Source: Akkermansiaceae bacterium (GTDB lineage: Bacteria; Verrucomicrobiota; Verrucomicrobiia; Verrucomicrobiales; Akkermansiaceae). Taken from it: a DNA stretch of 64,000 bases. The stretch covers positions 41,024-105,023 of the forward strand of contig SUVN01000003.1 of NCBI GenBank assembly GCA_015061985.1, written 5' to 3'. The notes under the pieces were generated by a model. That model searched no databases, was not told the origin of the DNA, and saw nothing but the letters and a program-made list of their open reading frames with translations. Both the position numbers and the translations under genes were made by a program. Position 1 is the first letter of the stretch. Each line of letters opens with the position of its first letter. Positions 7,098-59,440 of the stretch are shown piece after piece.

Positions 7098-7943
7098 ATG
7101 AACAATCTGTACAAAATAACATTCGCAGTACTGCCGGCGGTGGTTGGTCTGCCGCTGACAGCGGAAGCCGCACCCACGGAAGCCGAGAAGAAAGAGATTG
7201 ATGCCGCCAAACAGAGGGATGATGCCCTCCTGCCGGTTGCCAAGGAACGCATCACCCGTGTGCTGATGGATGCCGGCGTCATCAGCCCCGAACGCGGGCA
7301 GGCCATCATTGATGCCCCGGTAGAAAACTCCGGGCGGAGCAATATACGCGTCCGCTATGAAGAGGAGCTGAAGTTCCTGACCTCAGCCGCACATCTGGTG
7401 AGCCTGCGGCAGGAAAACAGTAAAAAGAAAGACCCGGACACCGCAGCTGCACTTGAATATGTGGAAGAGGTAGCCAAAGCCATCGGCACGGCGGACTTAC
7501 TGCTGCGCCTTGACAGCGACGGAAGTAATATCCGCACCATGACGGTCGACGCATGGGAGAACTGCGTACGGGTTTCCATGCTGAATCTGATGTTCAACAA
7601 GAATATCGATTACGACACGGCAGTGAGAAAATATGATGTAGCCGGGATTCTTCGGTATGCACTCTGGGACGAGCAGAAAAAGGTGTTCCGCTTCAATGGA
7701 AAACTTTTTGCTGCGGATTACGACCTGGATTCGCCGGAGGAGGAAGAGGGCTCCCCTGCCCCCACGGCGGATACTCCCATCACCTCCCCGTCTGCCGCCG
7801 GTGCTGAGCCGACGGGACAAACAACACCTCTTCGGGTTTACAACCCACCCAAAATGACAGAAGAAGAGCGGGAGAAAGCCAATTCTCACGGCATTGACGA
7901 GATTATGAAAGAGTGGAAAAAGCAGGGAATTCTCAAATTTTAA
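7098..7943 (+). CDS. Exported hypothetical protein; paralogue of the N-terminal domain of the next gene
   Basis: Signal peptide (LPAVVGLPLTAEAAP). About 190 aa align by eye with residues after the signal peptide of the 7976-11167 product, for example GVISPERGQAIIDAPVENSGRSNIRVRYE versus GVITPERGKAITEAAVKNSGKSNIRVKYE. A Pro/Ser/Thr-rich linker follows, then a short C-terminal tail. Confidence 0.7.
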   Translation: MNNLYKITFAVLPAVVGLPLTAEAAPTEAEKKEIDAAKQRDDALLPVAKERITRVLMDAGVISPERGQAIIDAPVENSGRSNIRVRYEEELKFLTSAAHLVSLRQENSKKKDPDTAAALEYVEEVAKAIGTADLLLRLDSDGSNIRTMTVDAWENCVRVSMLNLMFNKNIDYDTAVRKYDVAGILRYALWDEQKKVFRFNGKLFAADYDLDSPEEEEGSPAPTADTPITSPSAAGAEPTGQTTPLRVYNPPKMTEEEREKANSHGIDEIMKEWKKQGILKF

Positions 7944-7975
7944 CACATTTTCACCGACAACCACAAACAACTGAT

Positions 7976-10900
7976 ATGAAACCAACACTCGGAAAACTGA
8001 AATGGCTGATAGTGGCGGCGGCGTTTGCGCTACCGCTCACGGTAACGGCGGCCCCGACACAAAACGACCGGGCGGCCGAAGCCATGCTGGAAGCCGCCAA
8101 AAAGAAGGATGACACCATGCTGGCCACGTGCCGGAATCGCGTGGTCAACATGCTGGTAGAGACCGGCGTTATCACCCCCGAACGCGGCAAGGCAATCACA
8201 GAGGCCGCCGTGAAAAACTCCGGCAAGAGCAACATACGCGTGAAGTATGAGGACGGGAAACTCGTCTTTCTGACCTCTGCCGCCCACCTTGTCCGGCTGC
8301 AGCAGGAGACCAGCAAAGCGGAAAATCCGGATGCCGCCTTTGCCGAAAAGTATGTGGAGGCGGTAAGCAAGTCAATCGGCACGGCGGATATGCTGCTGCG
8401 GATGGGCGACCATTTGTCGAACATCAACAATGCAACCCTCGGCGGGTGGGAGGACTGTATCTGGATTGCCGTGCAGAACCTGATGCTGCAGAAAAACATC
8501 GACCGGGATACGGCGATGAAGACGGACAAGATCCCCTTTATCCGCAACTACATCAGCTGGGATGAGGAACTGAAGATATTCCGTCTCAAGGAAAAGGAGT
8601 TTGCCAAAGATGCCGGGCTGAATATACCGCCGGATGCCCCCCAACCCGCCCCGGGCGGTGCTGGTAAGCCGACGGGTACCGGCGCCGGAGCTACCACCCC
8701 TTCCCCGGATCCGCAGACACCGGAAACAAATCCTGACGATCCCTACGCCGACAAATTCCCCGGCATTTCACCCGAAATCCGCAAGTTCTGGTACAATCTG
8801 AAGCCGCTGGAAAACAAGGAGGACACCACGGGATTCCACAACACGGTCAAGGCCATCAGCCGCCATCTGCAACCGACCATCACCCTGACGCCGGGGAATT
8901 CCTATGAAGCTATCCCCTTTGAACAACTCACCAAAGAACAGTCCCGTGAGGGTAAGAACTGGTACCGGGGAGCCACGGCAAAAGCACGCATCAGCCCGGA
9001 ATATGTCCGCTTTTACCATGAGGTGATTGTGCCCAAATACGGTGCATTCATGAAAGCGCTGAGTACGGAAGTCGCAGTACACCGCGTCAAAGGAACGGTA
9101 AAATGCGGCCGCCGTGACAGGATTTACAGCATTAGTTACAAAACACCCAAGGATTTCAAAAATACGGGTTCGTGGCTTTCTTTCCTGACACCGGATAACC
9201 CTGAAGCTGTGTTCAGTAAAAAAGCGGGAGATACCGTCGATATGACGATGACGGTGTACTATGTGCCGGATATTTTTTCTGATTACTACACCAAACCGGG
9301 AGATTTCAAGTGTCATATCTATGCCAATCTCTACGATGCAGAAGGCAAGGCCATTGGTTTTACGCAAAATTACTTTGCCGGAAACAATTTGTTCTGGATG
9401 GAAAAAGGCTATGCAGAAGAACTCAGCTTTAGCAATATCTGTCTGAAAGATTCCGCCAAGGTTGCCGGGACGGAGTTTGATTTTATCAGCGGTGCAGAGA
9501 AAGCACGCCGAGCAAAAGCAGGCGAAAATCCGACCGCAGAACCGGCCGAGGACGGGCTCGAAATCGAACAGCCGGAAATTGCAGATGAGGGCACCTACGC
9601 CGGAATCCCCCGAAGCATGCAGGAATTCTGGGAAAATGTGGAGCTGCCGGAAAGCAAACAGGATCTGAATTGGTTCAAAAAGTTTACGGAAGATGTAGAT
9701 AAATATACGCAGCCTCAGTTTATTATCAAATACGCCAATCCTTACAAACAAGTGGCTTTTGAACGTTTGAATTCCAGCGAGGCAGAGTGCAGCCCCTACT
9801 GGTTTGCAGATGCAACGGCCACGCTCGAAATCAGTCCGGAATATGCCCGTTTCTACCACGAGGTGATTATCCCGAAATATGACGAGGTACTTTCCTTCTT
9901 CGCAACAAACAGATATGAAAGCCAAGCACAGGGAAAACTGAATGACGGCAAGTTGCAGTTCGACTTTGCCGATAGATACAAAGGCTTCTGGCTTTACCTC
10001 GCTGATGTGGATGATCCGGAAGCGCTCTTAAAGGCGAACGCGGGTGATATGGTAAAGGTCAACATAACAACCTACATCCTCCCCGAAGCATTCCGCTCAT
10101 CCTTCCAGAGTTCCGGCAGCAAAAGTATCGAGTGCTATGCCCATGCGGTAGATATTTCCGGGCAGAAGATTCGCACTTCCCGCGAAGGGTTCTATGCGCA
10201 CTGGGAGTGGCTCATCAAAAAGATACGAGTGCGTCTCAACTTTGACGCCTTCTACATCGTGAAGACGGAAAGCGGAGAACCGCAACAGGAATATGCCAAG
10301 ACAATAGTCACGCTGCGGGATGAGTATGACACCTTCGGTCAACCGCGCCCGGAGCCGTCTGCCCCGATTTCGGAGAAAGCCGGGTATCTTGGCGAAATTA
10401 TCGGAGGCATCTTTGTCAGTCTCTGGTTCCTGAGTATCCCCTACATGGTCTGGATTCTGTACTGTGAAAAGAAACGCGCATGGAAAATGCTGGAGCTGCC
10501 GGAGGATTACACGGCACCGGAAAGCCCAGTGTTCGAAATAGAGGGCTTGCGGAGCGAGTTTGACGCCATCCGCGACATCTGGTTCAACCTGGAGACCTCA
10601 GAAATAGAGGGTGAATTGTACTACCGCTTCATTCAGAAGAAAGAAATAGACGCATGCTACAAGGCGCTGGAGCCATTCAAGAGCATGACGGATCTGAGCA
10701 ATGATGAAAAATATGTGCTCAATGAAGTGGGCGCGGCTCTGAACAATGCGCAGAAACGCGTGCTGGGCTGCGGGATGAAGCAGTTTGTCATCATCTGTCT
10801 TCTCTGTGGTGTCGCCGGGCTTATGACCATGTTCATGACCTGGATTATACCGTTTGTGTATTATTTGTCCATGAAGACACCGGTGTATAAGGCGGCCAAT

Positions 10901-11167
10901 GATGAACCATGGTATCTGGCAATTATGCACCGTCTGCTCTACGCGCTCGGCATCGGCATGTTTATAGCAGCAGCACAAACGGCCAGAGGAGATTTCGATC
11001 CCGTTTATGTAGACAAACGCGGCAACTTGTATACGAATCTTGATGATAAACCCACAGGCTGTTTTATTGCCATCATGTGGCTGATGCTGGCACTTTTCCT
11101 TGCTCCGCTCCTTATCATGGCACAGTGCCTGATACATTTCATCCGCAACTATATCAGCAACCGATAA
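7976..11167 (+). CDS. Large exported/membrane hypothetical protein: paralogous N-domain, two ~230-aa tandem repeats, C-terminal polytopic membrane region
   Basis: Start chosen at ATG 7976 (MKPTLGKLKWLIVAAAFALPLTVTAAP, a signal peptide), because the longer ORF from 7913 overlaps the upstream gene. Internal repeats lie at ~8755-9480 and ~9590-10260 (ISPEYVRFYHEVIVPKY versus ISPEYARFYHEVIIPKY). At least four hydrophobic helices occur after nt ~10380. Confidence 0.7.
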   Translation: MKPTLGKLKWLIVAAAFALPLTVTAAPTQNDRAAEAMLEAAKKKDDTMLATCRNRVVNMLVETGVITPERGKAITEAAVKNSGKSNIRVKYEDGKLVFLTSAAHLVRLQQETSKAENPDAAFAEKYVEAVSKSIGTADMLLRMGDHLSNINNATLGGWEDCIWIAVQNLMLQKNIDRDTAMKTDKIPFIRNYISWDEELKIFRLKEKEFAKDAGLNIPPDAPQPAPGGAGKPTGTGAGATTPSPDPQTPETNPDDPYADKFPGISPEIRKFWYNLKPLENKEDTTGFHNTVKAISRHLQPTITLTPGNSYEAIPFEQLTKEQSREGKNWYRGATAKARISPEYVRFYHEVIVPKYGAFMKALSTEVAVHRVKGTVKCGRRDRIYSISYKTPKDFKNTGSWLSFLTPDNPEAVFSKKAGDTVDMTMTVYYVPDIFSDYYTKPGDFKCHIYANLYDAEGKAIGFTQNYFAGNNLFWMEKGYAEELSFSNICLKDSAKVAGTEFDFISGAEKARRAKAGENPTAEPAEDGLEIEQPEIADEGTYAGIPRSMQEFWENVELPESKQDLNWFKKFTEDVDKYTQPQFIIKYANPYKQVAFERLNSSEAECSPYWFADATATLEISPEYARFYHEVIIPKYDEVLSFFATNRYESQAQGKLNDGKLQFDFADRYKGFWLYLADVDDPEALLKANAGDMVKVNITTYILPEAFRSSFQSSGSKSIECYAHAVDISGQKIRTSREGFYAHWEWLIKKIRVRLNFDAFYIVKTESGEPQQEYAKTIVTLRDEYDTFGQPRPEPSAPISEKAGYLGEIIGGIFVSLWFLSIPYMVWILYCEKKRAWKMLELPEDYTAPESPVFEIEGLRSEFDAIRDIWFNLETSEIEGELYYRFIQKKEIDACYKALEPFKSMTDLSNDEKYVLNEVGAALNNAQKRVLGCGMKQFVIICLLCGVAGLMTMFMTWIIPFVYYLSMKTPVYKAANDEPWYLAIMHRLLYALGIGMFIAAAQTARGDFDPVYVDKRGNLYTNLDDKPTGCFIAIMWLMLALFLAPLLIMAQCLIHFIRNYISNR

Positions 11168-11199
11168 ATTAAACCCAACAACAATCAAACTCAATCACA

Positions 11200-11829
11200 A
11201 TGACCAATACAATCAAATGGAGTGTGGGAGGAGGAGCAGGTCTGCTGCTCCTCCTGGGAGGCCTGGCCGTGTTCTATCCTGAAAAAACGGCCGAAGCAAA
11301 ACAATCCATTGAGGCCGCCGGGGCCGTCGCGGTGGATAAAATCATCGCCTCCATGGAGGAACGGGTAGGCAAAACCCGCGTGGCGCTGGAACACTATAAA
11401 ACCGCCTACAAGGCCAAGCGAGAATCTCTGGTGCAGCTTAAAACCCTGCACTCAGAGGCCAAACGCAAGGCGGCAGAAGCAACCGCCCGCGCCGCCGAGC
11501 TGAGAGTCGGCGGCAAGGAGGCGGCAGCGGCAGCCAAGGAGGCGGAAAAAGCCATGTTTGAGGAACAGGCAGTCAAACTGGCGGATTCTGCAGCCAAAGC
11601 GGAAGCAGCCTACAAGGAGTTTGACCTGTTTTTCAAGCGAAAGAAAGTGGAGCTGGACACGCTGAGTGCCAAAACGGAAATGCTCAAGGGTGAGCTGACG
11701 GCGCTGAGCGGCGGAGACGCCGGTTTTGCCATGAAGCGGGCTCGCGAACTGGAGGAAGAAGTGAAGAAGACCTGCAGCCGCCTGGATGCGGAGCTGCAGG
11801 TGCAGCAGCTTGATAATGAAATGGAATAA
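11200..11829 (+). CDS. Membrane-anchored coiled-coil protein (possible PspA/IM30-like)
   Basis: N-terminal TM helix (GGGAGLLLLLGGLAVFY) followed by ~170 aa of A/E/K-rich heptad-like sequence. The DKIIASMEERV...ALEHYKTAY segment aligns with the next protein. The PspA resemblance is by eye only. Confidence 0.5.
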   Translation: MTNTIKWSVGGGAGLLLLLGGLAVFYPEKTAEAKQSIEAAGAVAVDKIIASMEERVGKTRVALEHYKTAYKAKRESLVQLKTLHSEAKRKAAEATARAAELRVGGKEAAAAAKEAEKAMFEEQAVKLADSAAKAEAAYKEFDLFFKRKKVELDTLSAKTEMLKGELTALSGGDAGFAMKRARELEEEVKKTCSRLDAELQVQQLDNEME

Positions 11830-11846
11830 AACAGAACTATCACGAC

Positions 11847-12449
11847 ATGCTGAAAAAAATCATCATCTATAGCATAGCGGCGCTTCTCTTGCTGTTTGTC
11901 GGCACGATTATCTGCTCTGCGGAGTACAGGTCAGATGTCAAAATTCTCTGGTACTCGTTTGTGGGGGACAAAATCTCACGCATGGAGGCTCAGGTGGATC
12001 AGGGTACTCTGGCACTGGCGCGTTATGACCAGGCATATAACACAGCCTACAATAAGCTGACAGCCCTGATGGGGGCACAGGCAGATGCCGGGGTCGGAGT
12101 CAGACGCTTCCGGGAAGCCGCTGAAGCACAGCGGCAGGAAGGAAGGGAAGATCTGGCGCTCCGCAGTGAAGAGCAGGCCGCCTTTTTTGAATCCAAACAG
12201 GAGGCCGTTAAAAACAGCATCGAAAAACGCAAGACCAAACTGGAGGAACTCAAGAAGATTCGCGAGCGCGCCTATCAGGATGTCCGCTTTGCCCGCCAGC
12301 GCATTGCCATGATGCAGACGATGCGGGATTCACTGGATGATGCCGGGATGCAGGATGTGCTGGATAAGGCGGAGCAGAACGTGGCCAATCTGCAAAGCAA
12401 CTGTAACCGGCTGAATGCGGAGATTGATGTTCTGCTGATGCTGGACTGA
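11847..12449 (+). CDS. Membrane-anchored coiled-coil protein, paralogue of the 11200-11829 product (possible PspA/IM30-like)
   Basis: N-terminal TM helix (IIIYSIAALLLLFVGTIICS). DKISRMEAQVDQGTLALARYDQAY parallels the upstream protein. The GREDLALRSEEQ and RQRIAMMQTMRDSLDD segments are reminiscent of PspA helices. Confidence 0.5.
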   Translation: MLKKIIIYSIAALLLLFVGTIICSAEYRSDVKILWYSFVGDKISRMEAQVDQGTLALARYDQAYNTAYNKLTALMGAQADAGVGVRRFREAAEAQRQEGREDLALRSEEQAAFFESKQEAVKNSIEKRKTKLEELKKIRERAYQDVRFARQRIAMMQTMRDSLDDAGMQDVLDKAEQNVANLQSNCNRLNAEIDVLLMLD

Positions 12450-12471
12450 ACTGCCCGGATTCCTACATGCC

Positions 12472-13137
12472 ATGACACTCATCGAAAACGAATTCTGGAA
12501 TGCGGTCTTAGTACTGTTCGTGCTCTGCGCAGTTGTTGCCGCTATTTTGCGGGGAATTTATTTCCACATCAAGTCCGGTCAGGTAGTCGGGCCGGCGGAA
12601 GATGAATACCGCGACAAGGGCAACCACAGTTGCTCCATGGGCTGTGCCTTAGGTGCTATCTTTCTGTTTGTCAACCTGGGGGGCATACTGATGCTGACCG
12701 GCCCCATCCTTTTTCTGGGAGCAGATAAGGAGCGGGAACGCCGGGAAAAGGAAGCGGCTGTTGACATCAATCCGCTGACACAGGGTCCCGTCTCCATACT
12801 GGCAAAGGAAAAGCCCATGCTGTACGAGCACTATTGCGAACTGGGGCGGGTGATTGACTCTATCGAGGCTCTCCGCCTGGAGGAGGAAGCCGCACGTGCC
12901 AATATGAGTAACCGGGATGCCCGGAACAGACTAAGCAAAAATATTGCCGGGTACAAAGCCGCACTGAAACGGTATGGCGAACTCAGAAAAAATGTCGAAA
13001 CACAGGCAGGTTATCTGTATTTTGCCAGATTCTTCTCCAATCTGGGCAGGCGCTTCAATGAAGAAGACCTGCTGAAGGACTTGAGCAAAACGGAACAGGA
13101 GCTTAAACAGGAGCTGCTCAACCGACCGAATAAGTAA
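12472..13137 (+). CDS. Membrane protein with two TM helices and a C-terminal coiled coil
   Basis: Hydrophobic segments FWNAVLVLFVLCAVVAAILRGIYF and ALGAIFLFVNLGGILMLTGPILFLGA, followed by charged helical sequence. It starts 22 nt after the previous stop. Confidence 0.6.
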   Translation: MTLIENEFWNAVLVLFVLCAVVAAILRGIYFHIKSGQVVGPAEDEYRDKGNHSCSMGCALGAIFLFVNLGGILMLTGPILFLGADKERERREKEAAVDINPLTQGPVSILAKEKPMLYEHYCELGRVIDSIEALRLEEEAARANMSNRDARNRLSKNIAGYKAALKRYGELRKNVETQAGYLYFARFFSNLGRRFNEEDLLKDLSKTEQELKQELLNRPNK

Positions 13138-13171
13138 GCGAGAAATATACTCAAACTGATTAATTAATCTC

Positions 13172-13711
13172 ATGAAAGGATGGTTTCTTTTGTCCTGCGT
13201 TCTCTTTGTGCCGACAGCCGGCTATTATTTCCTCACCAAAGGGGACGAAGATGCGAAATACAAAGCACTGCCGGATGCGGATGTATTCGTTACCAGTATT
13301 GAATTAGAGGATTTCGAGGAGTTCCTCTCATCGGGTAATGAGCTGGCAGAAAATGCCTACATCAGCAAGCTTCCGTACCCCGGTATTCGGGAAAAAGCAG
13401 GTGAACTCAGAGAGCGCTACAACCGCAGAGCTCAGATGATTCGTATCATTGACACCCGCAAGCGCGAATTCAGCTCCAAAAAGTTGATTAACCGTGACGT
13501 TGTGAATCGCGTCAACCGTAATCTTCAGGAGGAGAAAAAGAAAAATGCAGTCGTAAAGCAGCATTATGAAAAAATAATCAGCTTTGCAGAAATGCATGAA
13601 GCGGAAGCTCTTATTTCAAGGAACTCGGCCACAATGCAAAACAGGGTCAAAGAGTTGGAAAAAGAAAATGAGGCGCTGCTCAAAACGCTGGATGCTCCGC
13701 TGAACTTCTGA
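13172..13711 (+). CDS. Membrane-anchored coiled-coil protein
   Basis: N-terminal TM helix (GWFLLSCVLFVPTAGYYFL) followed by a K/E/R-rich helical region. Last gene of the co-directional block. Confidence 0.6.
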   Translation: MKGWFLLSCVLFVPTAGYYFLTKGDEDAKYKALPDADVFVTSIELEDFEEFLSSGNELAENAYISKLPYPGIREKAGELRERYNRRAQMIRIIDTRKREFSSKKLINRDVVNRVNRNLQEEKKKNAVVKQHYEKIISFAEMHEAEALISRNSATMQNRVKELEKENEALLKTLDAPLNF

Positions 13712-13738
13712 ACCTGCGCAACATGTGCGTTCATGCCC

Positions 13739-13775
13739 TCACCCCCGTTTCGCCGGAATGGCGGAGCGGGGGTGA
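13739..13775. terminator. GC-rich hairpin between convergent genes (putative terminator)
   Basis: tcacccccg (13739-13747) pairs with cgggggtga (13767-13775). It lies between the end of the 13172-13711 gene and the end of pdxH. There is no clean U-run on either strand. Confidence 0.45.
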
Positions 13776-13785
13776 TGATGTTGTA

Positions 13786-14424
13786 TCAGGGCTGCAGGCG
13801 CTCAATGCTCCAGGTGGAGTCGGGCTGCAGGGTGTACATGAAGCGGTCATGCACGCGGCCGGGGCCGCCCTGCCAGAACTCCACATGGTGCGGGACGATG
13901 CGGAAGCCGCCCCAGAAATCCGGCAGGGGTACCTGCCCTTCCGAGAATTTGTGCTTCAGCTCCTGCAATTTCATCATCAGCAGTTTGCGGGTGGAGATAA
14001 CCTGGCTCTGGTGCGATACCCAGGCACCCAGCTGGCTCTCACGCGGTCGGGAAAGGAAGTATTTGAGGGTTTCAGCGCGCGAGATTTTCTCTGCGCGGCC
14101 ATAGACGATAATCTGGCGCTCCAGAGTGACCCAGGGGAGCAGCATGCATATCTCCGGGTTGGCCTCCAGCTCACGTGCTTTGCGGCTGGTATAGTTGGTG
14201 AAGAAGACGTAACCGCGGTCATCATAATACTTGAGCAGCACCGTGCGCAGGGAGGGACGACCCTCCGGGGTGGCGGTGGCGATGCTGATGGCGTTCGGCT
14301 CCGGAATGCCGGCTTCCAGCGCCTGTTTGAACCAACGGTCAAACTGGACGAAGGGCGAGTCCGCCAAATCCCGCCGATGCAACGTGTCCTTGAGGTATTC
14401 TTCTCTGAATGCAGATAAGTCCAT
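13786..14424 (-). CDS. pdxH: Pyridoxamine 5'-phosphate oxidase
   Basis: 212 aa. NAISIATATPEGRPSLRTVLLK, YVFFTNYTSRK, LGAWVSHQSQVI, and the C-terminal HVEFWQGGPGRVHDRF...ERLQP motif typical of PdxH. Confidence 0.9.
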   Translation of the reverse strand: MDLSAFREEYLKDTLHRRDLADSPFVQFDRWFKQALEAGIPEPNAISIATATPEGRPSLRTVLLKYYDDRGYVFFTNYTSRKARELEANPEICMLLPWVTLERQIIVYGRAEKISRAETLKYFLSRPRESQLGAWVSHQSQVISTRKLLMMKLQELKHKFSEGQVPLPDFWGGFRIVPHHVEFWQGGPGRVHDRFMYTLQPDSTWSIERLQP

Positions 14425-55166: not shown

Positions 55167-55241
55167 TTGCGAGCAGGCATCTTTCCCTGTGCCGGAGTTA
55201 AGAGCACGCGAAACATCCTAACGGGCAGTATCACGCCTCAT

Positions 55242-55404
55242 CAGCATTTTGAATGCTGTAGCAAGTCCAAAAGTCAGATTTTATTGAAAATAATCCTCTT
55301 TTGCAGAAAATTTTCAGAAGATTTAGGAAAAATCTTCAGTTTTTGATGTTCTTTACCCCTTTGACTTTCGGGGGGTATCATAGGCTACAGCATTCAAAAT
55401 GCAG
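55242..55404 (+). repeat. ~163-nt element bounded by CAGCATT-N3-AATGCTG-type palindromes, upstream of PEP-CTERM gene 1
   Basis: cagcattttgaatgctg (55242-55258, perfect 7-3-7 palindrome) and cagcattcaaaatgcag (55388-55404, one mismatch). The 19-nt termini gcattttgaatgctgtagc / gctacagcattcaaaatgc are exact reverse complements. The interior aligns with the 59151-59315 element. Confidence 0.85.
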
Positions 55405-55516
55405 TATAATGACCCTGGCTTAATTGGTGTAAACATCTCTTCAACCCAACACACGAAAAAAAGGGGGGCTTCCGCACAATTACAGCTTAACTCTGAACAA
55501 TCTAATCATAATAGCG

Positions 55517-56101
55517 ATGAAGAAAACTTTTTTTACTCTTTTGGCGCTCAGCGGCGTAGCTATGGCGAGTGAACCGATGCAACAGGATTACAGTTCGTCT
55601 ATCACTCTCGACTATGGCTGGATGCTTGAATTCGAGATTACCACTAATACGTTGAGCGCAGAAGCCACACACGTGTTTTTCAAAGCTCAGGGAAATTATG
55701 GTGGCCCCGGTGCCTATGTAAGCAACTCTATAATCGGGTTAACCGATAATAACACAATCAATGGCATGAATGCCAGCGGTACTCTCAATCTTACCTTGGG
55801 CACGACGTATCGCATGTCCTTTGATAAAGGAACCGGCATTCTGTATCTGGCGGACACCACGACCAGCAATTATATAACAGCAGATTGGGCCGAATTTACT
55901 GCATATGCAAATATGTGGCAATCGAGCTTTTACGAGAGCAACGATGTTACAGTCACAGCCGGTAAAGTATACGACATGAACGGCATTACCGGCGAATCAT
56001 TCAAGAACTACGCCACGGCTGTTTCTGTCCCGGAGCCCACTACAGCTACGCTGAGCCTGCTGGCTCTGGCCGGTCTGACTGCCCGCCGACGTCGCAAATA
56101 A
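55517..56101 (+). CDS. PEP-CTERM sorting-domain protein (194 aa)
   Basis: Signal peptide MKKTFFTLLALSGVAMA. C-terminal VPEPTTATLSLLALAGLTARRRRK, i.e. PEP motif, TM helix and Arg cluster. Confidence 0.85.
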   Translation: MKKTFFTLLALSGVAMASEPMQQDYSSSITLDYGWMLEFEITTNTLSAEATHVFFKAQGNYGGPGAYVSNSIIGLTDNNTINGMNASGTLNLTLGTTYRMSFDKGTGILYLADTTTSNYITADWAEFTAYANMWQSSFYESNDVTVTAGKVYDMNGITGESFKNYATAVSVPEPTTATLSLLALAGLTARRRRK

Positions 56102-56125
56102 GTCTGAGCACTTTCCATTTCAAAA

Positions 56126-56163
56126 GCCGCTGCTCTTATCATGGGGCAGCGGCCTTTTCTTTT
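56126..56163 (+). terminator. Rho-independent terminator of PEP-CTERM gene 1
   Basis: An 8-bp stem, gccgctgc (56126-56133) / gcagcggc (56146-56153), followed by CTTTTCTTTT. It is homologous to the terminator at 57101-57134. Confidence 0.8.
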
Positions 56164-56271
56164 GATACAAGCCCACAAGTGCGAACTCTCATTCTTTTCC
56201 GAATCTGCCTAAATTGGCGACCTTCTCCGAAACATTTATCATCGGCTGCACACGTCAGCAATTTCGCTTCC

Positions 56272-56925
56272 TCAATTTCCGAGTTGCTCCAACGCCGCGC
56301 GAGCCTCCTCATGTCCCTGAGCGGCGGCTTTGCCGTACCAGACACGGGCAGTTGCCGCATCCTGCTCCACGCCCTCGCCTTCCTCATAACAACAGGCAAG
56401 ATTGTACTGCGCATTCGCCTGCCCTTGCTCTGCGGCGGCACGGTACCACCTCACCGCCTCCCGGCTGCTCTGCGGTACACCTTTGCCGAAATCGTAACAG
56501 ACTCCCAAATAGAACTGAGCCTCGGCAAGCCCCTGTTCAGCCGCCTTGCGATACCAGCGGAAAGCCTGAGCCTCATCCTTAGGGAGAATGCCTCCCTCCC
56601 CATACAACGAAGCCACGAGGAGCTGCGCACGCGCATCCCCACGCGCCGCCGCACAACGCCACAAAGCCATCGCCGCTTTCAGCGCTTTCTCATCCTGTGC
56701 AACGCGCCCGTAAGAGAACAAATTGCCTGACATTTCCATCATCGCAGCAGGGCTTCCCAGACGGGCAGACCATTCCGGCACAACATCAGGATGAGCCATC
56801 ACCACCGGCGCATGAGTCTTCGTGACCTTGTGCAGCTCAATCTTCCCGCTACCCACCAGTGCCACCGCCAGCGCAACGAGGCAGCACACCCCCACCATCA
56901 CTCTCCGTTCACGATTCAATTTCAT
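56272..56925 (-). CDS. Sel1-repeat (TPR-like) protein
   Basis: Start taken at MKLNRERR (ATG 56925), with an N-terminal anchor. It has four or more Sel1 units, e.g. AQFYLGVCYDFGKGVPQSSREAVRWYRAAAEQG and AQYNLACCYEEGEGVEQDAATARVWYGKAAAQG. Confidence 0.85.
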   Translation of the reverse strand: MKLNRERRVMVGVCCLVALAVALVGSGKIELHKVTKTHAPVVMAHPDVVPEWSARLGSPAAMMEMSGNLFSYGRVAQDEKALKAAMALWRCAAARGDARAQLLVASLYGEGGILPKDEAQAFRWYRKAAEQGLAEAQFYLGVCYDFGKGVPQSSREAVRWYRAAAEQGQANAQYNLACCYEEGEGVEQDAATARVWYGKAAAQGHEEARAALEQLGN

Positions 56926-56974
56926 AGAGTCACTTTTGTTGTTCACAGCAACTATACCCTTATCCGGCTGTCCT

Positions 56975-57066
56975 GACAACAAAAATCCCCGCACAACCCG
57001 ATAAATTCGAGCGAGCGCGGGGAGAAGAGGAAACCCTATTGGAGTCCCTACCCGTTGCAGGCAATC
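56975..57066 (+). repeat. Copy A of a ~90-bp direct repeat (terminator-like hairpin plus flanks)
   Basis: gacaacaaaaatccccgcacaacccgataaattcgagcgagcgcggggagaag...cccgttgcaggcaat aligns by eye with 59351-59440. Confidence 0.75.
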
Positions 57067-57100
57067 TTGCTAATCATTACAATCACCACCACTATCACAG

Positions 57101-57134
57101 GAAAAAAACCGCTGCCCCATAAGAGAACAGCGGC
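57101..57134 (-). terminator. Rho-independent terminator of PEP-CTERM gene 2
   Basis: Minus strand reads aaaaaagccgctgttctcttatggggcagcggttttttt. The stem is ccgctg / cagcgg, followed by a T7 run. Confidence 0.65.
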
Positions 57135-57223
57135 TTTTTTGCAGTAACGGAAAAGAGAGGGCATCGACAAGCCTGCGCCCGCAGACTCAGCGTCGCAGTA
57201 GTCGGCTCCCGTCTCCGCGCGCT

Positions 57224-59098
57224 TTACTTTCTCCTGCGGCGGAGGGTAAAGGCTACCAGACCCACCAGACCCAGCATGGAGGAAGTCGGCTCCGGAACAG
57301 CGGCTATACCCAGCGTGACATCGCCATTGGCGTTGTACTGCATCACGGCAGTGCCGGTGCTGTTGCCCTCTGCATCCAACAGTGTGACCTCATAGCCGGA
57401 GTAGGAATCTTCCCGCGCACCGGTGAAGAGCACCACCTCGGAGATATCAGCATCGCCCAGAGTCAGTGCAATGCTGCTGTTGCCGGTGAACACCACATCA
57501 TATTCTCCCAAATTAATCGTGTAATCTGCATCGGCGAAAATCAGTTCAGCATCGCCGGCCAGCATCATATCACCGGTCATGGTAAAATCACCACCCACCA
57601 GAATATCACCGCCCGTGGCGCTGATTCCGGCAATTTCGCTGCCTGCTTCTGCCACCAGCTTGCCGTCGGTCATGTTGACAGAAGCGTTGATAGTACCGCT
57701 GTTGACCAGCTCACCATCGGTGATGTTGATGCTTTCCCCTTCGGCGCTCTGAGCAAGGGAAACCACGCCGTTAATGGTGCCGTTGTTGGCAAACACGCCG
57801 CCCGAGATGGTCAGACCATTCACTACCAGCGTCTTGTCTTTTGCTACGGTAATCTCAGCCTTTTCGCTCTGGGTGAGGGTATTGACCGACACATCCTCAT
57901 TGAGGTTGAGCTTGCTCTCGCCGCTGACCTTCACGGTGTCGGCAGTCAGCGCGCCATTGACGTTGACGGTACCGGCACCGGACTGGTCAAGATTGTAGGT
58001 GGTGTTATTGCTTTCGAACGTTGTCTGGTCTAAGGCATAATTCGTGGGCAATGCTCCGGTTAATGCGGTATCATGACCACCGCCGATGTTGATGACACCG
58101 TTACCCGTTTGATTCAGAGAGATGGTGCTCTCCTGCTTAAAGTTGCTGCCATAGGCAAGGTGAATTAATCCATCCCCGCTTTGATTGAACACGATGTTTT
58201 GGGTGCCGCTTATTTGGGCTCTTCCCAGTTTGCCGATAACGAGCGTGGCGGAATCTGCGCTTTGGGTAAAGGTTGTAGTACCGGAGCCCTGCATGCAAAC
58301 AGTATCACGCAACACCGTTGCTCCGGCGTTATCTTCCTGCGTAATGGTGGCACCGGCTATCAGATTCACAGCACCATATACGTTCATGGTGCCGCCTGTT
58401 TGCGTCATTGAGAAACTACTATTGCCGAAAGCAGTCATGGTGCCTCGATAACTATCAATTCCCTCTATATCATCGCCGACATATCCGAAGGAAAGAGAAC
58501 CACCACTGATAGTCAGACTGTTTTGGATATATGAGTATTTGTAGCCACCATGGAAGACGCTACCTTGGTTACAACCGATGGTGCCGGTCGATACCGTACC
58601 TCCGGTTACAACCAAATCGGCGGCTGTAATTTTTGTTGCTGTAAGGCTGCCTCCGTTTACGGTAATCCCCGTGGCCTCAATCCCCTGGTAACTGGAATCA
58701 TTAAACTTGCCTCCCAATACAACCTTGCCATTGCCTTGCACTGTAACGTTGCCATGAACATGCAGATCCGGTGTCCTGGCAGAATCTGTTGGCGTTACCC
58801 ACTCCCAGTTATCAACGAAAGAACCTACATTATCGACGTGGCCTGTGGATTCGCCTGAATCACCGATGACTAAATCACCGTACCAATTATATTTCCGAGT
58901 ATCATATCCTTCATAGTAAAAAACATCAAGATAAGTATTACCGGCATTGTCCGTTTGGACTTTAGTTTCATCAAGTAGTGTACTATGCTGCACCCCTGAT
59001 GAAGGATCCCATTTTTCAGGCCCATCTGCGCCCATGGTCGGAAGGGCGAGGGCGGACATGACTGCTATACTGAGTAGTTTTGGTAAATGTAATTTCAT
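57224..59098 (-). CDS. PEP-CTERM sorting-domain protein, large beta-helix-like repeat protein (~625 aa)
   Basis: Start taken at MKLHLPKLLSIAVMSALALPTMGA (ATG 59098). It has G/T/N/S-rich repetitive beta-strand-like sequence. C-terminal VPEPTSSMLGLVGLVAFTLRRRRK. Confidence 0.85.
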   Translation of the reverse strand: MKLHLPKLLSIAVMSALALPTMGADGPEKWDPSSGVQHSTLLDETKVQTDNAGNTYLDVFYYEGYDTRKYNWYGDLVIGDSGESTGHVDNVGSFVDNWEWVTPTDSARTPDLHVHGNVTVQGNGKVVLGGKFNDSSYQGIEATGITVNGGSLTATKITAADLVVTGGTVSTGTIGCNQGSVFHGGYKYSYIQNSLTISGGSLSFGYVGDDIEGIDSYRGTMTAFGNSSFSMTQTGGTMNVYGAVNLIAGATITQEDNAGATVLRDTVCMQGSGTTTFTQSADSATLVIGKLGRAQISGTQNIVFNQSGDGLIHLAYGSNFKQESTISLNQTGNGVINIGGGHDTALTGALPTNYALDQTTFESNNTTYNLDQSGAGTVNVNGALTADTVKVSGESKLNLNEDVSVNTLTQSEKAEITVAKDKTLVVNGLTISGGVFANNGTINGVVSLAQSAEGESINITDGELVNSGTINASVNMTDGKLVAEAGSEIAGISATGGDILVGGDFTMTGDMMLAGDAELIFADADYTINLGEYDVVFTGNSSIALTLGDADISEVVLFTGAREDSYSGYEVTLLDAEGNSTGTAVMQYNANGDVTLGIAAVPEPTSSMLGLVGLVAFTLRRRRK

Positions 59099-59150
59099 GG
59101 TTTTATAGTTGTTCGTTTTGCGTGGTGCCGATTGGTCACCACGCACAATA

Positions 59151-59315
59151 TACAGCATTCACAATGCTGTAGTTATGTAAAATTCGGAAGAATCAAAGGG
59201 TTAGATTTCCAACTGTGACGGGATAACGTTTGTTTCATGGCTTCCTTGCAGAATAAAAGCTCATTATTTTCAGTAATTTCCAACTTTTAGACTTGCTACA
59301 GCATTGTGAATGCTG
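59151..59315 (-). repeat. ~165-nt element bounded by CAGCATT-N3-AATGCTG palindromes, upstream of PEP-CTERM gene 2 (homologue of 55242-55404)
   Basis: tacagcattcacaatgctgta (59151-59171, perfect 9-3-9 palindrome) and cagcattgtgaatgctg (59299-59315, perfect 7-3-7). The reverse complement begins cagcattcacaatgctgtagcaagtctaaaagt..., compared with cagcattttgaatgctgtagcaagtccaaaagt... in element 1. Confidence 0.85.
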
Positions 59316-59350: not shown

Positions 59351-59440
59351 GACAACAAAAACCCGCGCAACCCGATAATTCCGGGGAGCGCGGGGAGAAG
59401 GAGAAGCGGTGTTGTTATCCTTATCTGTTGCGGGCAATTG
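59351..59440 (+). repeat. Copy B of the ~90-bp direct repeat; contains the RND-operon terminator and overlaps the last codons of the RND gene
   Basis: gacaacaaaaacccgcgcaacccgataattccggggagcgcggggagaag...tctgttgcgggcaat. The hairpin cccgcgc (59362-59368) / gcgcggg (59388-59394) is followed on the minus strand by TTTTTG. Confidence 0.75.

What the first reader, a model, noticed from the sequence alone, without database searches (positions are those of the whole stretch)
55242..59315. Two homologous ~165-nt elements bounded by CAGCATT-N3-AATGCTG palindromes exactly 146 bp apart, each upstream of a PEP-CTERM gene
SEEN: There are four copies of a 17-nt palindrome. They lie at 55242-55258 (perfect), 55388-55404 (one mismatch), 59153-59169 (perfect, extendable to 9-3-9) and 59299-59315 (perfect). 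In each pair the centre-to-centre distance is 146 bp (55250 to 55396, and 59161 to 59307). The outer ~19-21 nt of each pair are reverse complements of one another (gcattttgaatgctgtagc / gctacagcattcaaaatgc). The interiors are alignable when element 2 is reverse-complemented. Compare aagtccaaaagtcagattttattgaaaataat with aagtctaaaagttggaaattactgaaaataat at one end, and cccctttgactttcgg with accctttgattcttccg at the other; the middle is divergent. Both elements have the same orientation relative to the PEP-CTERM gene that follows them. They end 113 nt before the ATG at 55517 and 53 nt before the ATG at 59098. A further 8-bp hairpin (59120-59127 / 59137-59144) lies in the leader of gene 2. INFERENCE: One option is a conserved regulatory cassette in which two operators for a dimeric regulator, spaced ~14 helical turns apart, permit DNA looping over the promoter of PEP-CTERM cargo genes. 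A second is a MITE-like element with terminal inverted repeats that delivers a promoter. A third is a structured 5' leader RNA closed by a long-range 19-bp stem. I do not recognise this motif from described regulons.
Basis: partly seen in the sequence, partly recalled or inferred. Interest (0 to 1): 0.65.

Follow-up and report, generated by a model that had tools for sequence, protein, structure and literature searches.

The report
Invertible promoter switches of PEP-CTERM genes
The two ~165-bp elements are DNA flip switches (invertons) of an uncultured gut Akkermansia that turn two surface-protein genes on or off by inverting a short promoter-bearing segment, a kind of switch already described for Akkermansia muciniphila.

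Summary
In detail: four CAGCATT-N3-AATGCTG palindromes form two pairs 146 bp apart, each upstream of a PEP-CTERM gene. The pairs are the inverted repeats of invertons.

Evidence:
- Contigs from public gut metagenomes carry the interior of element 1 (55263-55383) in both orientations. Three samples hold both junction types.
- An orthologous locus carries the interior of element 2 inverted between collinear flanks (94.6% identity inverted, 55% direct).
- In 57 of 60 pairs from Akkermansia genomes, the variable central triplets of the two repeats are reverse complements.
- Only one inner end carries a -35-like TTGCTA, and a TAnnnT -10 box sits outside the gene-proximal repeat. The 17-bp repeat is therefore the promoter spacer.
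- Both window copies are in the predicted OFF state. Flipping would give TTGCTA-17-TATAAT and TTGCTA-17-TATATT.
- One RNA contig of gene 1 starts at 55422, just after the -10 box.

Invertons next to PEP-CTERM genes are published for A. muciniphila. This is a new member of that kind, with a different repeat sequence. A tyrosine recombinase gene that abuts repeat pairs of this family in related genomes is a candidate invertase; none lies in the window.

The parts
55242..55262 (.). Inverton 1, gene-distal inverted repeat. Core palindrome is 55242-55258; the perfect arm is 55244-55262.
   Evidence: I4. Inversion joints map to 55262/55383 and 55263/55384, with 19 nt shared.
55263..55383 (.). Inverton 1, invertible interior (121 bp, 34-36% G+C).
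   Evidence: On the strand opposite to its flanks in contigs of runs X7, X25 and X28. Both junction types are present in X3, X5 and X10.
55259..55264 (-). -35-like hexamer TTGCTA of inverton 1, now at the distal end and pointing away from gene 1 (predicted OFF).
   Evidence: Anchored logo cTTGCTA-[repeat]-TAnaaT. The hexamer is at exactly one inner end in 29 of 36 pairs and never at both. Predicted flipped form.
55384..55404 (.). Inverton 1, gene-proximal inverted repeat (core 55388-55404, arm 55384-55402). It doubles as the 17-bp promoter spacer.
55405..55410 (+). -10 box TATAAT of gene 1, fixed outside the invertible segment.
   Evidence: TAnnnT abuts the gene-proximal repeat in 32 of 36 pairs. 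An RNA contig of run X26 (depth 122) starts at 55422.
55517..56101 (+). PEP-CTERM gene 1 (194 aa, with signal peptide).
   Evidence: Pfam PF07589, 22.2 bits against a cut-off of 20.7.
56126..56153 (+). Intrinsic terminator of gene 1. It is homologous to the stretch after gene 2.
   Evidence: I7, I10.
59153..59172 (.). Inverton 2, gene-proximal inverted repeat (core 59153-59169). It doubles as the promoter spacer.
   Evidence: I3.
59173..59295 (.). Inverton 2, invertible interior (123 bp).
   Evidence: Orthologous locus L130 has collinear flanks (96% and 88% identity) and an inverted interior (94.6% inverted against 54.9% direct). L127 is 96.9% identical in the direct orientation.
59293..59298 (+). 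-35-like hexamer TTGCTA of inverton 2, now at the distal end and pointing away from gene 2 (predicted OFF).
   Evidence: In L130 the same hexamer abuts the gene-proximal repeat.
59296..59315 (.). Inverton 2, gene-distal inverted repeat (core 59299-59315).
   Evidence: I3.
59147..59152 (-). -10 box TATATT of gene 2, outside the invertible segment.
59116..59148 (-). Hairpin at the start of the gene 2 leader.
   Evidence: I17. It is partly kept in 5 orthologues, with no compensatory change.
57224..59098 (-). PEP-CTERM gene 2 (624 aa from the ATG at 59098).
   Evidence: Pfam PF07589. Orthologues are 75-100% identical in Akkermansia MAGs.

Best explanation
Each element is an inverton, a phase-variation switch. 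A site-specific recombinase pairs the two 17-21-bp inverted repeats and inverts the 121-123-bp AT-rich segment between them.

The promoter is split:
- The -10 box (TATAAT / TATATT) is fixed outside the switch, next to the gene.
- The gene-proximal repeat is exactly the 17-bp spacer.
- The -35 hexamer (TTGCTA), with an A/T-rich upstream tract, sits at only one end of the invertible segment.

In one orientation the -35 abuts the gene-proximal repeat, giving TTGCTA-17-TAnnnT (ON). In the other it faces away (OFF). Both window copies are in the OFF orientation.

The switched genes encode PEP-CTERM (exosortase-sorted) secreted or surface proteins, so the cell population varies its surface. Where two PEP-CTERM genes diverge from one switch (L030, L064), flipping would toggle between them.

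Shown: the repeats; inversion of element 1 in natural samples; opposite orientation of element 2 in an orthologue; the motif layout across about 36 loci; one RNA 5' end just after the -10 box.

Inferred: the ON/OFF assignment, the identity of the recombinase, and the biological role.
For: 1. Direct inversion of element 1.
- Contigs in runs X7 and X28 (DNA) and X25 (metatranscriptome) have 55263-55383 on the strand opposite to both flanks. The 'opposite strands' joints lie at 55262/55383 and 55263/55384 and share the 19-nt repeat.
- X3, X5 and X10 hold both junction types.
- X1 and X4 hold the window orientation.

2. Element 2.
- Orthologous locus L130 has the same synteny (RND pump, element, gene 2, Sel1 gene) and an inverted interior: 94.6% identity inverted against 54.9% direct. 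L127, L128, L129 and L131 match the window orientation.
- The same holds for an unrelated pair of loci, L059 and L108: flanks 94% and 76% identical, interior 93% inverted against 55% direct.

3. Central triplets of partner repeats are reverse complements in 57 of 60 pairs, against 3.4 expected with shuffled partners. L131 shows a compensatory change, AAC/GTT for CAC/GTG.

4. Promoter layout.
- The logo is cTTGCTA-[CAGCATTnnnAATGCTG]-TAnaaT.
- The -35-like hexamer is at exactly one inner end in 29 of 36 pairs: 12 proximal, 17 distal, 0 both.
- A -10 box abuts the gene-proximal repeat in 32 of 36 pairs.

5. RNA. The X26 contig of gene 1 starts at 55422 at depth 122, with zero cover of the interior. 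In X25 the flipped form goes with expressed gene 1 (15.6 against 0-5 for the neighbours).

6. Distribution. 76 of the 118 loci that hold the repeat are Akkermansia-like, and there the sites come in pairs spaced 143-147 bp (32 pairs) or 122-124 bp (8 pairs). The other 42 loci hold single, chance-like sites. 52 of 56 PEP-CTERM ORFs in these loci have a site within 400 nt upstream.

7. Literature. A. muciniphila has an inverton group with its own repeat and promoter motifs, enriched next to PEP-CTERM sorting-domain genes, and it flips in vivo (PMC11892184). A cps1 inverton has been verified by PCR (PMC13343947).
Against: - No inverted form of element 2 was seen in the runs laid on it. Four DNA runs each were laid at fine scale. 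X2, X4, X25, X26 and X28 show the window orientation, and X7 was not informative. Some strains carry changes in its repeats (59155 G>T, 59311 T>A), so it may flip rarely or be locked.
- The runs are held as assembler contigs, not raw reads, so orientation ratios are rough.
- The ON/OFF assignment rests on sigma-70 consensus logic and two RNA runs, not on a mapped TSS in both states.
- The X25 RNA contig runs through the flipped interior to 55223. A TSS near 55417 does not explain this; read-through or DNA carry-over might.
- No recombinase gene lies in the 64-kb window.
- The repeat differs from the only sequence-level description I found of the A. muciniphila motif, CGGATT..AATCCG (PMC13343947), which is absent from the window and the 126 loci held at that point.
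Confidence: 0.9

Rival explanations
1. Static cis-regulatory cassette. The two palindromes are operators of a dimeric transcription factor that loops about 146 bp of DNA over the promoter (GalR/LacI-type repression), with no DNA rearrangement.
For: Both sites are strongly conserved palindromes (about 2 bits at 14 positions). The proximal one lies exactly between the -35 and -10 boxes. Spacing is tightly constrained: 143-147 bp in 32 pairs and 122-124 bp in 8, a difference of about two helical turns.
Against: The interior is found inverted in natural samples and in orthologues. The central triplets covary between partner sites in 57 of 60 pairs, which an operator model does not require. The -35 is present at only one end. 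No regulator gene is linked in the window. A regulator that also binds the repeats is not excluded.
Confidence: 0.04
2. MITE-like mobile element whose terminal inverted repeats carry a promoter to new sites.
For: It has 19-21-bp terminal inverted repeats, a size of about 165 bp, many copies per genome (at least 6-8 loci in single MAGs) and low G+C. An 82-nt duplication flanks the inverton 2 plus gene 2 cassette (D1 and D7).
Against: There is no target-site duplication at either copy (flanks ..ctcat|CAGC...GCAG|tataat and ..aatata|CAGC...GCTG|atatct). Interiors are almost unalignable between copies, apart from the -35 end. The position is fixed relative to a -10 box and a start codon 52-133 nt away. 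The element is retained at the orthologous site in five related genomes. MITEs do not invert in place.
Confidence: 0.02
3. Structured 5' leader RNA closed by the long-range 19-20-bp stem, acting as a riboregulator of PEP-CTERM genes.
For: If transcribed, the arms would pair perfectly. The complementary central triplets look like covariation.
Against: The RNA contig of gene 1 starts at 55422, downstream of both repeats, with zero RNA cover of the interior in that run. A -10 box follows the proximal repeat. There is no Rfam match. The interior is not conserved. Inversion explains the covariation.
Confidence: 0.01

Closest known systems
Akkermansia muciniphila intergenic invertons (Jiang et al. 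2019 Science, as cited in PMC11892184; 'inverton group 138'; the cps1 inverton of PMC13343947)
   Same: Same genus. Short intergenic invertible segments are flanked by 17-bp palindrome-like inverted repeats (example 2092093-2092109 / 2092267-2092283). They carry their own promoter motif, are enriched next to PEP-CTERM sorting-domain and autotransporter-type genes, and both orientations are seen in gut samples.
   Different: The repeat here is CAGCATT-N3-AATGCTG, while the motif quoted for A. muciniphila is CGGATT..AATCCG (PMC13343947). That motif is absent from the window and the 126 loci held at that point. The host is an uncultured species from goat and other gut and faecal metagenomes. I could not read Jiang et al., so I cannot say whether the split -35/-10 layout or the central-triplet rule is described there.
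Bacteroides fragilis capsular-polysaccharide promoter invertons (Mpi serine recombinase; own knowledge)
   Same: Many short promoter-bearing invertible segments per genome (about 170-190 bp) are flanked by repeats of about 20 bp. They control surface structures in a gut commensal, with an invertase acting in trans from elsewhere.
   Different: There the whole promoter lies inside the segment. Here only the -35/UP part is inside, the repeat is the spacer and the -10 is outside. The segments are shorter (121-123 bp). The candidate enzyme is a tyrosine recombinase, not a serine recombinase.
E. coli fimS switch (FimB/FimE tyrosine recombinases; own knowledge)
   Same: An invertible promoter for a surface structure, with tyrosine recombinase genes encoded next to the switch and short inverted repeats.
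   Different: fimS is 314 bp with 9-bp repeats and carries a complete promoter. It is one switch per genome rather than a family.
Proteobacterial 'PEP-CTERM box' upstream of PEP-CTERM genes with the PrsK/PrsR sigma-54 system (Haft et al. 2006 BMC Biol; own knowledge, not read here)
   Same: A shared cis element in the long intergenic regions upstream of single-gene PEP-CTERM operons.
   Different: That element is a static sigma-54 promoter or enhancer site. Here there is a sigma-70-like split promoter switched by DNA inversion.

Membership tests
Inverton (invertible promoter, phase variation) | Two inverted repeats flank a short segment | tested here: met
   The arms are 19 nt and 20 nt long and 100% complementary, 121-123 nt apart.
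Inverton (invertible promoter, phase variation) | Both orientations of the segment occur in nature, with unchanged flanks | tested here: met
   Element 1: flipped in X7, X25 and X28; both junction types in X3, X5 and X10; window form in X1 and X4. Element 2: shown only by an orthologue, L130, which is inverted relative to the window, L127-L129 and L131. It was not seen flipped in the runs laid on it.
Inverton (invertible promoter, phase variation) | The segment carries promoter function directed at a neighbouring gene | tested here: inconclusive
   A -35-like TTGCTA lies at one inner end only (29 of 36 pairs), and a -10 box lies outside the proximal repeat (32 of 36). One RNA 5' end is at 55422. 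There is no TSS map or reporter in both states.
Inverton (invertible promoter, phase variation) | A cognate site-specific recombinase | tested here: inconclusive
   None among 47 window ORFs. A PF00589 tyrosine recombinase abuts a repeat pair of this family in L052, L091 and L096, and clearly in L123, L124 and L126. L119-L122 have a degenerate pair and L125 has only one degenerate site. Its activity is untested.
A. muciniphila inverton group (Jiang 2019 / group 138) | Shares that group's repeat motif | tested here: not met
   The motif as quoted, CGGATT..AATCCG (PMC13343947), has no match in the window or in the 126 loci held at that point. The layout is alike (xxxATT-gap-AATxxx), but 2 of 6 half-site bases differ. 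The original logo was not available.
A. muciniphila inverton group (Jiang 2019 / group 138) | Lies next to PEP-CTERM or autotransporter-type surface protein genes in Akkermansia | tested here: met
   Pfam PEP-CTERM on both window genes. 52 of 56 PEP-CTERM ORFs in the loci have a repeat within 400 nt upstream. 76 of 118 loci are Akkermansia-like.
Operator pair with repression loop (LacI/GalR type) | Sites are static, and their non-contacted central bases vary independently | tested here: not met
   The segment inverts. The central triplets are complementary in 57 of 60 pairs, against 3.4 expected.
MITE | Target-site duplication, and similar copies at unrelated insertion sites | tested here: not met
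   No duplication at the ends. Interiors diverge. The register with the -10 box and start codon is fixed. The position is syntenic in orthologues.
Cis-regulatory RNA (leader or riboswitch) | The element is part of the transcript and has a conserved structure | tested here: not met
   The RNA contig begins at 55422, after the element. No Rfam family reaches its gathering score.

The most novel reading that the evidence does not exclude
These switches are 'split-promoter' invertons. The recombination site is itself the 17-bp promoter spacer, and only the -35/UP half of the promoter moves. One switch can then toggle reciprocally between two divergent surface-protein genes. The non-palindromic central triplet, matched within a pair but varied between loci, would set site polarity and limit cross-talk among the many switches of a genome. 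A dedicated Akkermansia tyrosine recombinase family, encoded directly beside a repeat pair of its own and often beside restriction-modification genes, would be the so far unassigned invertase. PMC11892184 found no invertase linked to the Akkermansia group.
Probability: 0.4. Interest if true: 0.5.

Novelty: new member of a known kind. Interest (0 to 1): 0.3.

Why it matters
Akkermansia is a prominent mucus-layer commensal and a probiotic candidate. Its invertons are reported to flip during gut colonisation, and one controls the capsule (PMC11892184, PMC13343947).

The same switch type, with a different repeat sequence, is spread over dozens of non-muciniphila Akkermansia genomes and governs PEP-CTERM cargo. 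Surface phase variation therefore looks like a genus-wide trait.

The split-promoter layout gives a simple rule for reading ON or OFF from an assembly. The recombinase found beside repeat pairs is a concrete candidate for the unknown invertase. For genome annotation, such palindrome pairs should be read as invertons rather than as operators or MITEs.

Tried and rejected
- Rfam scan of the whole window: no family at gathering score.
- Operator, MITE and RNA-leader readings: considered and rejected, see the rival explanations.
- Helical-phasing argument for looping. The spacings cluster at 143-147 and 122-124, but the pairs are homologous and so not independent. Longer spacings (131, 138, 155, 164-212, 262) are not clearly phased. 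Not pursued.
- Recombinase or regulator in the window: 47 ORFs scanned against Pfam, none found.
- Clustering of ORFs in the 76 Akkermansia-like loci for recurrent neighbours. Only the tyrosine recombinase (3 loci) stood out.
- Flipped form of element 2 in read data: not seen in the runs laid on it.
- Metagenome scan for pairs of CGGATTNNNAATCCG, meant to fetch A. muciniphila-type invertons. The hits were mostly tRNA anticodon arms such as tRNA-Cys (GCA), and only 34 of 128 pairs had complementary centres.
- Jiang et al. 2019 could not be read.
- Leader hairpin of gene 2: five orthologues give no compensatory change, so there is no support beyond its presence.
- Central triplet as a strict per-genome address: not supported as absolute, since some MAGs reuse one triplet (CAA four to five times, CAG five times).

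Full report
**Observation.** With up to two mismatches they are the only matches in the 64-kb window, against 0.54 expected by chance. At three mismatches the four extra hits are at chance level. Each pair is spaced 146 bp start to start. The pairs form perfect inverted repeats of 19 nt (55244-55262 / 55384-55402) and 20 nt (59153-59172 / 59296-59315). The two elements align once element 2 is reverse-complemented; the ends are conserved and the middle is divergent. They are AT-rich, 34-36% G+C against about 60% around them. Both downstream ORFs (55517-56101 on the + strand, 57224-59098 on the - strand) pass the Pfam PEP-CTERM threshold. The gaps to the start codons are 112 and 54 nt.

**Distribution.** Of these, 76 are Akkermansia, Akkermansiaceae or 'Verrucomicrobiales' MAGs or likely misbinned contigs. 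The other 42 are single sites in unrelated taxa, as chance predicts.
- In the Akkermansia loci the sites come in pairs. Spacing is 143-147 bp in 32 pairs and 122-124 bp in 8, with a tail from 131 to 262.
- Of the 56 ORFs with a PEP-CTERM tail in these loci and the window, 52 have at least one site within 400 nt upstream, and most have two. The proximal site lies 52-133 nt from the ATG.
- The loci were selected for the repeat, not for the gene family, so this association is real.
- The window itself comes from an uncultured Akkermansia found in goat and other gut and faecal metagenomes.

**Anatomy.** I anchored all gene-associated sites on the palindrome and oriented them towards the gene. This gives the consensus cTTGCTA-[CAGCATTnnnAATGCTG]-TAnaaT. 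The palindrome is therefore exactly the 17-bp spacer of a sigma-70-like promoter, and the -10 box lies outside the repeat pair on the gene side.
- A TAnnnT hexamer abuts the gene-proximal repeat in 32 of 36 pairs. It abuts the outer side of the distal repeat in only 8, and 6 of those belong to loci where a second PEP-CTERM gene diverges from the same element (L025, L030, L064).
- The -35-like hexamer is found at exactly one of the two inner ends in 29 of 36 pairs: 12 at the gene-proximal end, 17 at the distal end, never both.
- In both window elements it is at the distal end (55259-64 on the minus strand; 59293-98 on the plus strand).

**Inversion.** A literature search led to invertons, and the data bear this out.
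1. The variable central triplets of the partner repeats are reverse complements in 57 of 60 pairs, against 3.4 expected for shuffled partners. L131 shows a compensatory double change.
2. Orthologous loci with collinear flanks carry inverted interiors.
   - L059 and L108: flanks 94% and 76% identical, interior 93% inverted against 55% direct.
   - Window element 2 and L130: flanks 96% and 88% identical, interior 94.6% inverted against 54.9% direct. L127 matches the window directly at 96.9%.
3. I laid public contigs on element 1.
   - Run X7 has a 1417-nt contig with 55263-55383 on the strand opposite to both flanks. The joints lie at 55262/55383 and 55263/55384 and share the 19-nt repeat.
   - X28 and the metatranscriptome X25 show the same.
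   - X3, X5 and X10 contain both the window-type and the flipped junctions. For example, the loose end CTATGATACCC after 55262 is the reverse complement of 55373-83.
   - X1 and X4 have the window form.
4. For element 2, no flipped junction was seen in the runs laid on it.

**Mechanism.** Flipping would place TTGCTA next to the proximal repeat. This gives gacttTTGGACTTGCTA-[17]-TATAAT for gene 1 and TTGCTA-[17]-TATATT for gene 2. Both window copies are thus in the predicted OFF state.
- RNA data agree as far as they go. In run X26 the gene 1 contig (depth 122, neighbours 10-27) starts at 55422, 12 nt after the -10 box, with no cover of the interior. In X25 the flipped form goes with expressed gene 1. 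Gene 2 (window orientation) is covered at low depth, apparently by read-through from the efflux-pump operon.
- One observation is unexplained: the X25 contig runs through the flipped interior to 55223.
- The 7-3-7 repeat, with its non-palindromic and partner-matched centre, fits a recombinase core site whose crossover region must match between partners. This is an inference.
- The very short loop (121-123 bp) and the narrow length classes suggest that synapsis needs a bent, AT-rich segment. This is also an inference.

**Recombinase.** None of the 47 window ORFs scanned against Pfam is a recombinase or an obvious regulator. The window holds nuo genes, IMPDH, aconitase, a GH84 enzyme, an RND pump and similar genes.
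- Among the Akkermansia loci, one protein family stands out: a tyrosine recombinase of 327-397 aa (PF00589). Its start codon lies within about 20 nt of a repeat pair of this same family in L052, L091 and L096.
- It has 1482 relatives at E <= 1e-10, named Akkermansia tyrosine-type recombinases where named.
- In further loci fetched through these relatives, the gene is usually preceded by a recognisable repeat pair. The pair is clear in L123, L124 and L126, degenerate in L119-L122, and reduced to one degenerate site in L125.
- The gene often lies beside restriction-modification genes, as in L124, L125 and L126.
- It is a candidate invertase and is untested.

**Known or new.** Invertons of A. muciniphila, with their own repeat and promoter motifs, are published. 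They are enriched next to PEP-CTERM sorting-domain genes and flip over mouse generations (PMC11892184). A cps1 inverton has been verified by PCR and restriction digest (PMC13343947). Akkermansia has the highest number of intergenic invertons per genome in a long-read survey (PMC10028968).
- The present elements are therefore new members of a known kind.
- The repeat differs from the motif quoted for A. muciniphila (CGGATT..AATCCG), which is absent from the window and the 126 loci held at that point.
- My attempt to fetch A. muciniphila-type pairs from metagenomes was confounded by tRNA anticodon arms. Jiang et al. 2019 was not available. I cannot say whether the split-promoter layout, the central-triplet rule or the recombinase link are already described.
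- PMC11892184 reports no invertase linked to the Akkermansia group.

**Verdict.** Confidence that these are invertons is 0.9: very high for element 1, and high for element 2 on comparative evidence only. Confidence in the ON/OFF assignment is about 0.7. Interest is modest, because the class is known.

Noticed in passing
window 56983-57065 and 59357-59438: An 82-nt direct repeat (74-81% identical). It consists of the last codons of the RND pump gene plus its hairpin and T-run on the minus strand. It lies on both sides of the inverton 2 plus gene 2 cassette, as if the cassette had been inserted or duplicated between the pump and the Sel1-repeat gene.
   Followed up: partly
window 56122-56158 and 57103-57138: The terminator of gene 1 and the stretch after gene 2 are homologous (inverted repeats I7 and I10). 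The cassettes therefore share their 5' switch, their C-terminal sorting signal and their 3' end, while the passenger domains differ.
   Followed up: no
L052 5400-5640; L091 4462-4670; L096 5610-5820; L119-L126: A tyrosine recombinase gene (PF00589) starts within about 20 nt of a repeat pair of the same family (spacing 149-180 nt). In all three of L052, L091 and L096 the -35-like end faces the recombinase. In L124, L125 and L126 the gene sits beside restriction-modification genes.
   Followed up: partly
L030 1978-2140; L064 4182-4345; L025 3336-3543: A single inverton lies between two divergent PEP-CTERM genes, each with its own -10 box outside a repeat. One flip would switch expression from one gene to the other.
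   Followed up: partly
L054 4462-4677; L078 7243-7458: Three repeat copies (164 nt plus 35 nt apart), with a TTGACT next to the inner copy. This may be a nested or two-step switch.
   Followed up: no
leaders in L003, L006, L059, L088, L101, L104, L108, L057, L086, L097: Many PEP-CTERM leaders share a conserved motif about 25-60 nt after the -10 box (..CAGGTATCTCAGCATCCCGACGCGCGTGGGAA..). Variants such as CTCATTGCGCAAGAG hint at a small stem (CCC/GGG changing to CTC/GAG). The motif is not present in the two window leaders.
   Followed up: no
window 59155, 59311 (runs X3, X10, X11); L129, L131: Strain variants carry single changes inside the repeats of inverton 2 (for example AATGATG), which may weaken or lock that switch.
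   Followed up: no
window 55223-55383, run X25: A metatranscriptome contig of gene 1 continues through the flipped interior to 55223, although the TSS is expected near 55417. The cause may be read-through, a second start or DNA carry-over.
   Followed up: partly
window 7098-14418: A run of six same-strand ORFs (179-281 aa) behind a 1084-aa ORF. None has a Pfam match.
   Followed up: no
L133-L165 (metagenome loci): Pairs of CGGATTNNNAATCCG spaced about 91-94 or 140 nt apart are mostly anticodon arms of neighbouring tRNA genes in tRNA arrays. This is a trap for searches with that motif.
   Followed up: partly
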